A DNA stretch of 64,000 nucleotides from Candidatus Aquilonibacter sp. GTDB lineage: Bacteria > Acidobacteriota > Terriglobia > Terriglobales > Acidobacteriaceae. The translations under genes and the position numbers were made by a program. The DNA is taken from assembly GCA_035504135.1 (NCBI GenBank), contig DATJSM010000012.1, positions 67,701-131,700 on the forward strand, in the 5' to 3' direction. This document shows positions 14,692 to 25,491 of this stretch, piece by piece (position 1 is the first letter of the stretch; the number at the start of each line of letters is the position of its first letter). The notes beneath the pieces were generated by a model. It saw only the letters and a program-made list of their open reading frames with translations, ran no database searches and had not been told where the DNA came from.

Positions 14692-14719
14692 AGTGAATAG
14701 TGAGTGGTGACTGGTGAAT
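14692..14719. repeat. Heptamer tandem array (4 units) upstream of the ilvC RBS
   Basis: AGTGAAT AGTGAGT GGTGACT GGTGAAT. Confidence 0.85.
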
Positions 14720-14735
14720 GAAACAAAAGCGCGAA

Positions 14736-15350
14736 TCAGGCCTCGTCGAATTCGGTGGGGAGTTTTTCGTCTTCGGGGAGGGCGGTGGGATCAAGCGCGT
14801 CCTGGGGCTCGTCAGGTTTGCTGCCGAGGGCTTTGAGGACGCGGCCCGTGTGATGGCCGCGGCGCATGGCCATGCGGCCGGTGCGTGAGACCTCGAGGAC
14901 TTCGTAGCCGGACTCGCGAAGGACCTGGAGGAGGCCTTCGATCTTGGAGGCGGAGCCGGTCATCTCGAGCATGATGGATTCGGGCGCGAGGTCGACGACG
15001 CGCGCGCGAAAGACGTTGGCGAGCTCGAAGATCTGCGAGCGCGAATGGACGCCGTGCGGCGAGTTGGGGCCAGCGGCGACCTTGATGAGGCAGAGTTCGC
15101 GGACGACGGCTTCGGCGCGGTTGACCTCGTCGACGTGGATGGTGGTCTCGAGTTTGTAGAGGGAAGCGCGAATGCGGTCGGCAGCGTGCTCGTGGGCTTC
15201 GCAGACGATGGTCATGCGCGAGGTGTCCGGGCGCTCGGATTCGCCGACGGTCAAAGAGACGATGTTGATGTTGAGCCGGCGGAAGAGCGAGGCGACGCGG
15301 GTGAGCGTGCCGGGCTTGTCTTGAACGATGGCGACGAAGGTGTGGAGCAT
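14736..15350 (-). CDS. ilvN: Acetolactate synthase small (regulatory) subunit
   Basis: [49 protein letters not shown]. Confidence 0.95.
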
Positions 15351-15358
15351 GGTGCCTC

Positions 15359-15386
15359 AGTGAATAGTGAGTACTGAATAGTGAAT
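15359..15386. repeat. Heptamer tandem array (4 units) upstream of the ilvN RBS
   Basis: AGTGAAT AGTGAGT ACTGAAT AGTGAAT. Confidence 0.85.
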
Positions 15387-15390
15387 AAGG

Positions 15391-15924
15391 CTACGACGAT
15401 GGTGGGGCGTCAGGGTTCCAGAGTTCGGTCTGTTTGTCGTCGGCGTGGAGGAGGACGCCGTCGCCGCGGTCTTTGTTGGAGAAGCTGCCGAGGGTGTAGT
15501 CGCCGGCGGCGTGATAGCTGGGGCCGCAGGGAAGTTTGCCGGTGGTGTACTTTTCGTCCGCGCATTTTGCGCCCCGATAGATGTGGAACCAGATCATCGG
15601 GTCGCGGGCGTCGACGAATTTTTGAGAGATGTGGAGTTTGTCGAAGCTGTGCGAGCCGGCGGCATCGTGGAGTTGCCAGATGATGGCGGCGATCTGGTCG
15701 TCGGTGGCGTTGTCAGAGGTGACGAGGGTGATGGAGTTGTCGGTGGTGTGGAAGACCTTGAAGGGTGGTGGTGGTGTATTGGGGCGTGGTGGGTAAGTAG
15801 ATTTTGCAACGATAGGTGTCGACGGCGCGGGAGTGGGTGCGGGTGCGGATTTGCAGCCGAGCGCGAGGGCTGACGTTGCCAAGAGCAGAGTCGATCGGAT
15901 TCGCGTGCTGTTGAGGCTAGGCAT
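15391..15924 (-). CDS. Hypothetical lipoprotein
   Basis: Lipobox LALGC after a hydrophobic stretch; Pro/Thr linker; start uncertain (ATG 15924). Confidence 0.7.
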   Translation of the reverse strand: MPSLNSTRIRSTLLLATSALALGCKSAPAPTPAPSTPIVAKSTYPPRPNTPPPPFKVFHTTDNSITLVTSDNATDDQIAAIIWQLHDAAGSHSFDKLHISQKFVDARDPMIWFHIYRGAKCADEKYTTGKLPCGPSYHAAGDYTLGSFSNKDRGDGVLLHADDKQTELWNPDAPPSS

Positions 15925-15984
15925 TTTGGGGATCGAATTCAACCTCTAAATTGTTGGTGCATCTGCTAAGCGCTCGGCCAAATC

Positions 15985-22881: not shown

Positions 22882-23561
22882 TGCTTTGCTCCCGTTGACG
22901 TGGGCTTAAGGCCGAGAACTGACGGTGCGAGCACGTCGATCTGACCCGTAGGTTCGACAAAGTTTGCCAGTAGAAAGCCCTTCTCGCTAATCCAGGCTTC
23001 GCCGTCCTTGCGGTCACTTGCCATCAGATCGCTCTGCCACTGCTGCAAACTGCTGAGAAACTGGGAGGGAAAATTTTGCCAGTTGAGCTGGCTGCTAGAA
23101 AAGATCCAGAGCAGGTTGCCGGGGCCCTTGTAGGCAAGATTGCTATCTACAAAATCTTCGGCGACGAAGATGAGCTTCGCCGGGTGCGTTCCGGTGTCGA
23201 TCCATAACATTCCGCGCGTGGTGCAGGCATGGGGTACGCAGCCAACCGCGGTGACGTACCGGTTGTCATCGAGCCGGACTCCACCCGGAACACCGAGATA
23301 GACCTGGACGAGCTGCGGAAGTGGAGTGAAGGTGCCGTGGTCGCGCCAGAACCACTGGTGCTGCGGGAACGACGACCGCATCAGTGGAAGAAAACGCCGG
23401 TCCCATTTGATATCGCCCTTACTGGCGCCGTAGCTGCCCACGTAGCTGCGGGTCCACACTGCATCGCTTGCAGCAGACGCGGCGGTTGCTCGCGGCTGTG
23501 CCATTCCCGCCGCGGCAGAAGCGAGGGCGAGGGTGGCGAGTTGGAGTCGATGCGATTTCAT
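22878..23561 (-). CDS. Secreted protein, Ivy (lysozyme/lytic transglycosylase inhibitor)-like
   Basis: Signal peptide; [19 protein letters not shown] resembles the Ivy CKPHDC loop. Confidence 0.55.
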
Positions 23562-23564
23562 GAT

Positions 23565-24338
23565 TCAGTTGCGTGGTTTGAGTTCGGTACTGTGCGCGGG
23601 TTGATCGTCCTGGGCGGTGGTGTCGGGCTGCGGGGCGATCGTGTTGGCTCCGGCGAGCGCGGGGTTGAGAGCGTAGGGAGCGCCACCGGGTTCGACGAGC
23701 GTGGCGTGTTCAATGTGCGGGACGAGGCGGTGCGCGGCGGCGAGACGCGCGTCCCAGTGCGCGATGGCTTCGGTGAGCCGAAGCGGAAGCTCGGCGGCGG
23801 AGAGGACGTGATTGGGGAAGAGCCAGAGATTGTAGTTGGCGGCGGCTTCGTCGGTAGTGTGGCCTTCCGTGGTCCAGTTGACGGCGGCGAAGACGATCAA
23901 CGGATCTCTGGTACCGAGGTCAATCCAGAGCAGACCGTGCGCGGCGCAGAAGGTGGGAACGCAGCCGTCGATGGAGATGTAGCGGTTGTCCTGCGTGGTG
24001 ACGGTGCCGTAGCGCGAGAGGAAGAGCGGGATGATGGCGTCGAGCGGCTGCGTGCGCGCGGGATCGGTGTCGCCCCACATGGCCTGGGGCTCATGGAAGT
24101 TCGCGAAGAGCAGAGAGCGGAAGCGCGGGTCGAAGCGGAGATCAGTGGCGCGGCCGATGGGCTCGGGTTTGGTGAAGGCCCACAGCCACTGGAGATTGTC
24201 GATGGAGCGGATGGGGCCGTGCGCGGGATTGGAGGGAGGATGAGCGATGAGCGTGTCGGGGTTTGTGATCTGCGCGCGCGTCGCCGTGACTGCGGTGAGG
24301 AGCAGTGCGAGAGCGGCGAGTTGGAGTGTGCGGCGCAT
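23565..24338 (-). CDS. Secreted protein, paralog of 22878-23561 (Ivy-like, loop His absent)
   Basis: Start MRRTLQLAALALL; DNRYISIDGCVPTFCAAHGLLWIDLG aligns with its neighbour. Confidence 0.55.
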   Translation of the reverse strand: MRRTLQLAALALLLTAVTATRAQITNPDTLIAHPPSNPAHGPIRSIDNLQWLWAFTKPEPIGRATDLRFDPRFRSLLFANFHEPQAMWGDTDPARTQPLDAIIPLFLSRYGTVTTQDNRYISIDGCVPTFCAAHGLLWIDLGTRDPLIVFAAVNWTTEGHTTDEAAANYNLWLFPNHVLSAAELPLRLTEAIAHWDARLAAAHRLVPHIEHATLVEPGGAPYALNPALAGANTIAPQPDTTAQDDQPAHSTELKPRN

Positions 24339-24349
24339 TGATTGGTGAA

Positions 24350-25453
24350 CTAAACAGCGTGGAGCGATTGTTGTTTGTCGATGGACTGCGCGAGCGCTTC
24401 GTGCACGAGCTTGCCCATCTCGTGTGTGGTGACGTTGGCTGCGGCGTTGCCGCGGGCGATGTCGGAGGTGCGATGGCCGGCAGCGAGAACTTTGTCGACG
24501 GCGGCTTCGACGGCGAGAGCGTCTTCTTCGAGGTTGGCGGAGTGGCGAAGCAGCATGGCTGCGGTGAGGATCGCGCCGAGCGGATTCGCCTTGCCCTGGC
24601 CCGCGATGTCGGGCGCGGAGCCGTGGACGGGTTCGTAGAGATTGACCTTGCCGCCGAGCGTGGCGGAGGGCAGCATACCGAGCGAGCCGGTGATGATGCC
24701 GGACTCGTCGGACAGAATGTCGCCGAAGAGATTTTCCGTGAGCACGACGTCGAAGTTGCGCGGGATGTTCATGAGGTGCATGGCCATCGAGTCGACGAGC
24801 TGGTGTTCGACCGTGACGTCGGGGTATTCGGATTTGAGTTCGTCGACCGTCGCGCGCCAAAGTTGGGAGCACTCGAGCACGTTGGCCTTGTCGACCTGCG
24901 TGAGTTTCTTGCGACGCTTGCGGGCGAGTTCAAATGCAATTCGAGCCACGCGGATGACTTCGTCCTTGGTGTAGCGCATGGTGTTGATGGCTTCGCCGGT
25001 TTGTTTGTTCCAGCTTCGCGGCTGGCCGAAGTAGAGGCCGCCGAGCAGTTCGCGCACGAACAGGATGTCGACGCCTTTGGTGACTTCAGGGCGCAACGGC
25101 GAGTTGTCGCCGAGCGCGGCGAAGGCGAGACACGGACGCAGGTTCGCGTAGCCGCCCAGGACCTGGCGAATCTGAAGCAGGCCAGCCTCGGGACGCTTGT
25201 CGGGCGTGAGGTGGTTGAACTTGTTATCGCCGACGGCGCCGAGGAGGACAGCATCTGCATCCAGCGCGACGTCGATGGTCTGCTGCGGCAGCGGTGTGCC
25301 GGCGGCGGTGATGGCGACGCCGCCGATCTGCGCCTCGGTTAAGGTGAACTCGTGGCCACCGAACTCTGCGACGGCCTTGAGGATGTTGACGGCTTCGCGG
25401 GTGACCTCGGGTCCGATGCCGTCTCCGGCGAGGATAGCGATCTTAAGCTTCAT
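24350..25453 (-). CDS. leuB: 3-isopropylmalate dehydrogenase
   Basis: GDGIGPEV, YANLRP, VRELLGGLYFG, VDKANVL, NLFGDILSD, EPVHGSAPDIAG. Confidence 0.98.
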   Translation of the reverse strand: MKLKIAILAGDGIGPEVTREAVNILKAVAEFGGHEFTLTEAQIGGVAITAAGTPLPQQTIDVALDADAVLLGAVGDNKFNHLTPDKRPEAGLLQIRQVLGGYANLRPCLAFAALGDNSPLRPEVTKGVDILFVRELLGGLYFGQPRSWNKQTGEAINTMRYTKDEVIRVARIAFELARKRRKKLTQVDKANVLECSQLWRATVDELKSEYPDVTVEHQLVDSMAMHLMNIPRNFDVVLTENLFGDILSDESGIITGSLGMLPSATLGGKVNLYEPVHGSAPDIAGQGKANPLGAILTAAMLLRHSANLEEDALAVEAAVDKVLAAGHRTSDIARGNAAANVTTHEMGKLVHEALAQSIDKQQSLHAV

Positions 25454-25463
25454 GGGCTCTTCC

Positions 25464-25491
25464 AGTGAGTAGTGAGTAGTGAAGAGTGAAT
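25464..25491. repeat. Heptamer tandem array (4 units) upstream of the leuB RBS
   Basis: AGTGAGT AGTGAGT AGTGAAG AGTGAAT. Confidence 0.9.

What the first reader, a model, noticed from the sequence alone, without database searches (positions are those of the whole stretch)
14692..25491. Four arrays of exactly four heptamers, each abutting the RBS of a leu/ilv gene
Seen: (AGTGA[A/G]T)x4, 28 bp each, at 14692-14719, 15359-15386, 21410-21437 and 25464-25491. On the mRNA each reads U-rich stretch-(AUUCACU)4-purine-rich SD-like sequence-AUG of ilvC, ilvN, leuD and leuB (for example ...AUUCACU-GGAAGACACC-AUG). All have the same orientation, copy number and position. I saw no other copy of this motif in the 64 kb. 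Random microsatellite expansion would not be expected to fix copy number or position. Inference: a multimeric RNA-binding-protein site (TRAP-like translational control of branched-chain amino acid synthesis), a G-poor unstructured ribosome standby or processing element that tunes stoichiometry, or a scar/target of the process that inserts cargo genes in this operon. Heptamer STRRs are known in cyanobacteria, but I know no description of this arrangement.
Basis: partly seen in the sequence, partly recalled or inferred. Interest (0 to 1): 0.78.

Follow-up and report, generated by a model that had tools for sequence, protein, structure and literature searches.

The report
Orphan arms of four-helix-bundle cassettes
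The four 7-base repeat runs in front of these amino-acid synthesis genes are four of 47 such runs scattered at gene borders across the genome, and they match the repeat arms that bracket a small gene of unknown function, so they are likely stray copies of a mobile cassette's arm rather than a leucine/isoleucine control switch.

Summary
The four arrays exist at the stated places, 8-17 nt before the ATG of ilvC, ilvN, leuD and leuB, but only 12 of 16 units are exact. They are not leu/ilv-specific. The genome (Acidobacteriaceae, 79% complete) holds 47 such arrays of 2-8 units (19 with four): 30 after stop codons, 17 before starts, 23 in inverted pairs. That is the layout published for Xanthomonas and Nostoc heptamers, here without G-tracts. 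In relatives the same slot before ilvN is empty or holds other heptamers, even at 95% DNA identity. The same unit, variant order and inner flank form the inverted arms around the genome's one four-helix-bundle (PF05635) gene; 65 of 107 such genes have inverted arms, against 3 of 2755 control genes. At that gene's junction, relatives show cassette, gene-less arm pair and empty site. No such gene was found in 204 leu/ilv loci, so these four are likely arm copies, not proven scars. How they move is unknown. The scan reported the cassette before on other DNA.

The parts
14692..14719 (-). Heptamer array before ilvC, degenerate (mRNA sense ATTCACC AGTCACC ACTCACT ATTCACT); ends 17 nt before ATG, followed by a purine-rich SD-like stretch
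15359..15386 (-). Heptamer array before ilvN (ATTCACT ATTCAGT ACTCACT ATTCACT), inner flank GCCTT, followed by GAGG; ends 8 nt before ATG, starts 4 nt after the stop of an unnamed ORF
21410..21437 (-). Heptamer array between leuC stop and leuD start (ATTCACT ACTCACT ATTCACT ATTCACT), inner flank GCTTT, followed by GGAAG; ends 10 nt before ATG
25464..25491 (-). Heptamer array between leuA and leuB (ATTCACT CTTCACT ACTCACT ACTCACT), followed by GGAAG; ends 10 nt before ATG
13634..14674 (-). ilvC, ketol-acid reductoisomerase (host gene downstream of array 1)
14736..15350 (-). ilvN, acetolactate synthase small subunit (host gene downstream of array 2)
20761..21399 (-). leuD, isopropylmalate dehydratase small subunit (host gene downstream of array 3)
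24350..25453 (-). leuB, isopropylmalate dehydrogenase (host gene downstream of array 4)

Best explanation
The four arrays are members of a genome-wide family of 47 polar heptamer arrays at gene borders and are likely gene-less copies of the downstream arm of a mobile cassette, a four-helix-bundle (PF05635) gene bracketed by inverted heptamer arrays, kept here probably because they sit harmlessly joined to the ribosome-binding site and not because they sense leucine, isoleucine or valine. Shown: the full cassette reads host stop, (AGTGAAT)n, four-helix-bundle gene, GCCTT(ATTCACT)n, next host gene. The genome has one such cassette, ten gene-less spacers bounded by inverted arrays, and 24 single arrays with the same polarity. 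Inferred: cassettes or their gene-less pairs enter operon junctions and decay; an upstream arm survives next to or overlapping a stop codon, a downstream arm survives in front of the SD sequence. Inferred: arms are copied between sites as units (recombination or gene conversion, or transposition by an enzyme not identified), because dispersed copies share a position-specific variant order and the slot before ilvN has been refilled many times with different units. Any effect on translation would be a mild, amino-acid-independent one from a G-poor open leader (predicted, untested).
For: 47 arrays; ATTCACT-3' end within 35 nt of a gene in 42 of 47 versus 10 of 47 on the other side (hand count; test). 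12 inverted pairings AGTGAAT...ATTCACT within 600 nt, 0 in the opposite arrangement. The single PF05635 gene of G000 (C21:274792-275187) is bracketed by these arrays. 97 of 107 four-helix-bundle genes have an arm, 65 of 107 an inverted pair; control 427 and 3 of 2755 genes. At that cassette's junction in five relatives: G006 frameshifted gene with both arms, G024 and G060 gene-less ATTCACT arm pairs, G013 a pair with another unit, G059 empty. A G000 gene-less pair (C29:11866/11981) is filled by a cassette with a similar downstream arm in G012. The four closest relatives of the G000 protein (69-82%) carry the same unit at a different junction, which is empty in G000. In 19 four-unit arrays the second base is T in 17, 10, 3 and 16 at units 1-4 (p 5e-6), the order of the cassette's upstream arm. 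Six unit families change at least 21 times on a tree of 48 array-bearing ilvN genes. Gene-less inverted pairs occur in relatives at leuC-leuD (L200) and before ilvN (L218-L220).
Against: No four-helix-bundle gene in 204 leu/ilv loci, with a working positive control: the four sites are not shown to have held a cassette. Apart from G000's own cassette, only 1 of 106 cassette genes mapped to a junction where G000 has an AGTGAAT array; most map to junctions without one. Several genomes rich in these arrays gave no close relative of the protein (G024, G045, G064, G065, G078, G080, G081; 76-94% complete), and 2 of 8 genus members without any PF05635 hit have many heptamer arrays (G002 140, G010 66). 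Within the genus, Y1-transposase count tracks array count about as well (rho 0.63 versus 0.67). No mobilising enzyme identified; the direction cassette-to-arm versus arm-captures-gene is not settled. All four window arrays are of the before-start type (chance about 0.013), which the model does not explain. Genomes and cassette sites are related, so the p values overstate.
Confidence: 0.6

Rival explanations
1. The arrays are RNA (or single-stranded DNA) binding sites for the four-helix-bundle protein itself, a predicted pentamer, which would tune translation or processing of array-tagged mRNAs. Compatible with the best explanation for origin; it adds a function.
For: Closest solved structure is Xcc0516 (2gsc, E 7e-23, five chains), described as a homopentamer (PMC4990558, passage). 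The DGR protein Avd is a positively charged pentamer similar to S23 proteins and binds an RNA element (bioRxiv 2023.10.23.563531, passages). Unit tracks protein clade across different junctions. Four units with fixed ends give five YTR triplets at 7-nt spacing.
Against: No binding data. Arrays occur in both senses on mRNA. Runs of YTR in relatives' loci peak at 3-4, not 5 (128, 134, 85 for 3, 4, 5). Array-rich genomes exist without a detected cognate protein. In Coxiella the protein is reported as probably not expressed (PMC4990558, passage).
Confidence: 0.17
2. Ordinary heptamer microsatellites that arise locally by slippage; polarity comes only from selection (C/U-rich open leader before starts, stop-rich purine strand after stops).
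For: Copy number varies 2-8. Leaders are predicted more open than average: 0.52-0.72 unpaired versus mean 0.45 for about 300 genes. Units at ilvN are a few substitutions apart and share CT[A/G].
Against: Shared position-specific variants, a sharp 3' end and a shared inner flank (GCCTT, GCTTT or GTCTT in 21 of 47) point to copying. Whole-array unit change at 92-95% ilvN DNA identity. Inverted arms around four-helix-bundle genes are unexplained.
Confidence: 0.1
3. The arrays are a REP/REPIN-type family moved by a REP-associated tyrosine transposase (RAYT); four-helix-bundle genes are passengers.
For: Doublet, singlet and gene-flanking layout resembles REPINs (PMC3116915, abstract). Y1-transposase genes sit inside the leu/ilv operon of 7 of 24 relatives. 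RAYT cleavage at CT dinucleotides is recalled, not from a call, and nearly all units contain CT.
Against: Those transposases are flanked by their own palindromic repeats, not by heptamer arms. None found in G000 (79% complete). In the other family the four most array-rich genomes have no PF01797 hit (rho -0.44). The unit is not a palindrome.
Confidence: 0.08
4. TRAP-like, amino-acid-responsive translational control of leu/ilv genes by a dedicated RNA-binding protein.
For: All four window arrays abut the SD region in the same sense. Heptamer arrays are frequent before ilvN (41 of 93) and ilvC (17 of 98) across relatives.
Against: 13 of 17 before-start arrays precede unrelated genes, including ribosomal-protein genes and nusA (names recognised from N-termini). 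Sequence not conserved in close relatives; below threshold at 52 of 93 ilvN, 34 of 37 leuD and 36 of 41 leuB junctions. Clusters of four or more sites within 12 kb occur three times in the genome, so clustering is not special to this operon.
Confidence: 0.03

Closest known systems
GGGAATC / GGGGA(T/C)T heptamer repeats of Xanthomonas and Nostoc (Rehm et al. 2015, PMC4692102; read: abstract, parts 1, 3, 4, 5 of 8 and passages; supplements not seen)
   Same: Genome-wide, intergenic, mode of four units, purine-rich strand on the sense strand within 50 bp after a stop or on the antisense strand within 50 bp before a start, frequent inverted pairs, no functional class of neighbours.
   Different: The unit here has no G-tract (GGG or CCC in 2 of 47 arrays), so quadruplex formation cannot explain the four-unit mode here. 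The paper contains no mention of 'helix' or Xcc0516 and reports repeats as stable between two species, whereas here the slot is labile.
TAACTGA repeats of Beggiatoaceae, Cyanobacteria and Bacteroidetes (MacGregor 2015, PMC4679880; read: abstract, first of five parts of Results, Summary)
   Same: Heptamer direct repeats of 2-6 copies just upstream of start codons in one orientation, with translational control proposed; CTGATAA is one of the units seen before ilvC in relatives.
   Different: There most sets lack an SD and almost none are inverted; here an SD-like stretch follows, and most arrays lie after stops.
S23p/IVP-encoding intervening sequences of 23S rRNA (Coxiella; PMC4990558; read: six passages)
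   Same: Four-helix-bundle ORF inside terminal inverted repeats, with tandem heptamers (GACAGAT) in the 5' arm.
   Different: Located in rRNA and cut out by RNase III; the G000 cassette lies between protein genes, and the four window arrays have neither gene nor partner arm.
REP / REPIN / RAYT systems (Bertels and Rainey 2011, PMC3116915; read: abstract and outline only)
   Same: A gene flanked by inverted repeats, dispersed gene-less inverted doublets forming hairpins, and singlets.
   Different: Arms are tandem heptamers, not palindromes; the flanked gene has no known catalytic activity; no Y1 transposase found in G000.
TRAP of Bacillus (recalled, not from a call)
   Same: Idea of a ring protein reading spaced triplets near an SD.
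   Different: Pathway specificity and conservation of the site were tested and not met.

Membership tests
Polar intergenic heptamer repeats (Xanthomonas/Nostoc type) | Genome-wide, mostly intergenic 7-mer arrays of variable length with a mode of four units | tested here: met
   47 arrays, 2-8 units, 19 with four
Polar intergenic heptamer repeats (Xanthomonas/Nostoc type) | Purine-rich strand sense after a stop, antisense before a start, within about 50 nt | tested here: met
   42 of 47 within 35 nt; 30 after stops, 17 before starts (hand count)
Polar intergenic heptamer repeats (Xanthomonas/Nostoc type) | Frequent inverted pairs | tested here: met
   23 of 47 arrays in 12 pairings, 0 in the opposite arrangement
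Quadruplex-forming heptamer repeats | G-tracts of three or more in each unit | tested here: not met
   GGG or CCC in 2 of 47 arrays
Four-helix-bundle (PF05635) cassette arm | Same unit, variant order and inner flank as the arms around the PF05635 gene | tested here: met
Four-helix-bundle (PF05635) cassette arm | A filled cassette at the same junction in a relative | tested here: not met
   0 hits in 204 leu/ilv loci; met for two other junctions of the same array family
23S rRNA intervening sequence | Location in rRNA and a terminal stem around the ORF | tested here: not met
   single arms between protein genes
23S rRNA intervening sequence | Excision by RNase III | not testable with these tools
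   needs RNA end mapping or an in vitro assay
REP/REPIN | Palindromic unit flanking a RAYT gene | tested here: not met
   non-palindromic unit; operon RAYTs in relatives carry other, palindromic repeats; no PF01797 hit in G000 (79% complete)
TRAP-like pathway-specific translational operator | Restricted to one pathway and conserved in sequence among relatives | tested here: not met
TRAP-like pathway-specific translational operator | Ligand-dependent protein binding | not testable with these tools
   needs binding and reporter assays

The most novel reading that the evidence does not exclude
The unexplained heptamer repeats of many bacteria are the non-autonomous progeny and binding sites of a RAYT/REPIN-like system whose master gene is the four-helix-bundle pentamer: each protein clade reads its own CT[A/G]-anchored heptamer, its arms are written again and again into the same operon junctions together with the SD, and the protein thereby gains a handle on translation of core operons such as leu/ilv and the ribosomal-protein operons.
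Probability: 0.15. Interest if true: 0.88.

Novelty: new variant of a known kind. Interest (0 to 1): 0.52.

Why it matters
Heptamer repeats at bacterial gene borders have been described without an origin or function (PMC4692102, PMC4679880). This case shows the same four-unit mode and polarity in a unit that cannot form a quadruplex, which weakens that explanation, and ties the repeats to an orphan protein family through shared units, shared junctions and a protein tree. It names a protein and an RNA that can be tested together. It also warns against reading periodic motifs before operon genes as regulators: the slot before ilvN holds at least six interchangeable unit families. As a leu/ilv control element the finding is not supported.

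Tried and rejected
RNA evidence: no RNA holder listed for the operon; this says nothing on expression, and no reads were laid. Cassette at the four junctions: profile search of 204 loci, none found. Mobilising enzyme: PF00078 and PF01797 not found in G000 (79% complete); PF13366 in only 4 of 41 genomes. Promoter- and terminator-like sites in 13000-28000 were at chance level, 2 versus 2.1 and 11 versus 14. Attenuator-peptide reading (CUA/CUG codons in the units): rejected by reasoning, one Leu codon per three units in a frame and no conserved leader. Five-anchor/pentamer match: only weak support. A polarity test for the genome's other 7- and 8-mer families by a crude nearest-gene rule gave 44 obey, 25 not, 5 undecided, AGTGAAT family included; not relied on. 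Whether Xanthomonas xcc0516 is flanked by GGGAATC arrays was not tested. Literature searches for a link between four-helix-bundle/S23p genes and dispersed heptamers, or for such repeats in Acidobacteria, found only the papers cited; most subscription papers and all supplements were unseen. Gene calls come from my own simple caller, with at least one wrong start (C21:278765). G055 is unpublished and was left out of all counts.
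Full report
Observation. The four arrays are at the stated coordinates. A two-unit pattern with one mismatch gives 10 matches in the window, all inside these arrays, against 0.05 expected. On the mRNA they read ATTCACT-type and end 17, 8, 10 and 10 nt before the ATG of ilvC, ilvN, leuD and leuB (gene names). Only the leuD array is four exact units; 12 of 16 units match AGTGA[A/G]T. 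leuA, leuC, ilvD and ilvB have none. The best LeuD matches come from records titled Acidobacteriaceae, Granulicella and Terriglobus.

Genome-wide picture. G000 (3.28 Mb, 79% complete) has 47 arrays at 36 sites: 9 of two units, 12 of three, 19 of four, 3 of five, 3 of six, 1 of eight. Their ATTCACT-3' end lies within 35 nt of a gene in 42 of 47 cases, against 10 of 47 for the other end (hand count, using my own gene calls). For 30 arrays that gene ends there, so the mRNA reads AGUGAAU after the stop. For 17 it starts there, so the mRNA reads AUUCACU before the SD. Twelve pairings within 600 nt read AGTGAAT...ATTCACT and none the other way; they involve 23 arrays and are predicted to fold into hairpins. 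Neighbours include ribosomal-protein genes and nusA (names recognised from N-termini, not from a call). Sites cluster: three groups of four or more within 12 kb, against 0.008 expected, so the leu/ilv cluster is one of three. One oddity remains: all four here are of the before-start type (chance about 0.013).

The arrays behave as copies of one element. In the 19 four-unit arrays the second base is T in 17, 10, 3 and 16 cases at units 1 to 4 (p 5e-6). Conservation ends sharply after the last CT, where G (12 of 19) replaces the A that the period predicts (2 of 19). The inner flank is GCCTT, GCTTT or GTCTT in 21 of 47. Independent slippage would not be expected to give this (inference).

Relatives. 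Period-7 arrays lie in the 60 nt before ilvN in 41 of 93 distinct junctions, ilvC 17 of 98, leuD 3 of 37, leuB 5 of 41, leuC 8 of 69, ilvB 1 of 69, ilvD 1 of 42, leuA 0 of 25 (genes at 70% identity or more, identical leaders counted once, degenerate arrays fall below the threshold). The unit before ilvN varies, and nearly all variants fit CT[A/G]NNNN. G000's nearest clade holds ATTCACT, TCTACCC and AACCACT at 90-95% ilvN DNA identity. Six hand-defined unit families change at least 21 times among 48 array-bearing genes; 46 rows without a label were not counted, and no shuffle was run. Some leaders stack two different arrays (L027, L218-L220). Position and period persist while the sequence does not, which argues against a conserved operator.

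The cassette. G000's only PF05635 gene (C21:274792-275187) lies between an AGTGAAT array after the upstream stop and a GCCTT-flanked ATTCACT array. Its upstream arm has the consensus variant order. Of 107 four-helix-bundle genes fetched from relatives, 97 have a 7- or 8-mer arm, 71 have both and 65 have an inverted pair, each with its own unit. These were 50 loci for the 68 matches plus those, without duplicates or the unpublished G055, and many share a junction. Among 2755 G000 genes the same test gives 427, 32 and 3. At the junction of G000's cassette, five relatives show: a frameshifted gene with both arms (G006, possibly assembly error), gene-less ATTCACT arm pairs (G024, G060), a pair with another unit (G013) and an empty site (G059). 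Conversely a gene-less pair in G000 (C29:11866/11981) is filled by a cassette in G012. The four closest relatives of the G000 protein (69-82%) carry ATTCACT arms at another junction that is empty in G000, and on a tree of 44 proteins three small clades keep their unit across different junctions. All 9 genomes with a full-length match of 64% or more have AGTGAAT arrays, against 24 of the other 91. Across 41 genomes a general CT[A/G]-heptamer count follows the PF05635 count (rho 0.67).

Results against. No four-helix-bundle gene was found in 204 leu/ilv loci, some redundant, although the profile finds held-out controls. Only 1 of the other 106 cassette genes maps to a G000 junction with an AGTGAAT array. 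Several array-rich genomes gave no close protein match, and G002 and G010 have many arrays with no PF05635 hit. Within the genus the Y1-transposase count correlates about as well (0.63); outside it does not (-0.44). Kin are not independent, so all p values overstate. Gene-less inverted pairs do occur in relatives at leuC-leuD (L200) and before ilvN (L218-L220), so two of the four junction types are visited by the paired form.

How it most likely works. Shown: layout, polarity, shared unit and flank, lability, and filled, gene-less and empty states at one junction. Inferred: a cassette or gene-less pair enters a junction and decays; upstream arms persist beside or overlapping stop codons, downstream arms persist joined to the SD; arms are also copied between sites. 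The four window arrays are likely such downstream-arm copies. The moving enzyme is unknown: no reverse transcriptase or Y1 transposase was found in this incomplete genome. The 30 nt upstream of the SD region are predicted more open than average (0.52-0.72 unpaired versus 0.45), but so are those of ilvD and leuC, which have no array, so a benefit is not shown. The protein's closest solved relative is Xcc0516, a pentamer by PMC4990558; Avd, a similar pentamer, binds RNA. Binding of the arrays by this protein is the boldest reading and is untested.

Comparison with print. Rehm et al. 2015 (PMC4692102) describe the same four-unit mode, polarity and inverted pairs for G-rich heptamers and relate the mode to quadruplexes; the unit here has no G-tract. 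MacGregor 2015 (PMC4679880) describes heptamers just before start codons. The Coxiella intervening sequence has heptamers in the arm of an S23p ORF (PMC4990558; passages). REPINs give the closest model for doublets and singlets (PMC3116915; abstract). Seven searches found no paper that links dispersed heptamers to four-helix-bundle genes; subscription papers and supplements were not seen. Earlier notes of this scan report the cassette on other DNA (240 findings). I had noted the idea before that look-up, and those notes are not evidence.

Verdict. Real feature, not a leu/ilv regulator; a G-tract-free variant of a known class of gene-border heptamer repeats, likely derived from four-helix-bundle cassette arms (0.6). 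Interest 0.52.

Noticed in passing
window 42144-42148: A 3-nt junction before a mutL-like gene (name recognised from its N-terminus) is empty here but holds a four-helix-bundle cassette in 9 of the 107 genes examined in relatives.
   Followed up: partly
L027:13943-14278, L030:11585-11908, L032:13741-14073, L034, L036, L044, L045: RAYT-like Y1-transposase genes with their own palindromic repeats sit inside the leu/ilv operon of 7 of 24 relatives, on the opposite strand; a profile finds 31 hits in 27 of 204 loci, some redundant. The operon looks like a home site for this RAYT family.
   Followed up: partly
window 15391-15924, 15985-16272, 18028-18438, 20234-20764, 22878-23561, 23565-24338: Six ORFs interrupt the leu/ilv operon and have no Pfam match at E 0.01. 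The 257-aa ORF between leuB and leuC recurs in most relatives whose loci were displayed; the others come and go.
   Followed up: partly
window 25538-26716 and 26849-27769: LeuA is only about 390 aa and matches positions 4-387 of a 516-position profile, so it likely lacks the C-terminal regulatory domain; a LysR-family gene is divergent from it and is the more ordinary candidate regulator.
   Followed up: no
G000 C7, C11, C15, C19, C14, C21, C38: The genome has further 7- and 8-mer array families (AGATGCG, AGAGATC, AGCTGTG, AGCGAGTC) whose units match arms of four-helix-bundle genes in relatives, with no cognate gene found in this 79% complete assembly.
   Followed up: partly
L249, L250, L252, L255: A divergent clade of four-helix-bundle genes sits directly before an ahcY-like gene (name recognised from its N-terminus) with no clear arm pair, possibly domesticated.
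   Followed up: no
L217-L220, before ilvN: Heptamer arrays run to within a few bases of the ATG with no separate SD-like stretch, as in the Beggiatoaceae repeats.
   Followed up: no
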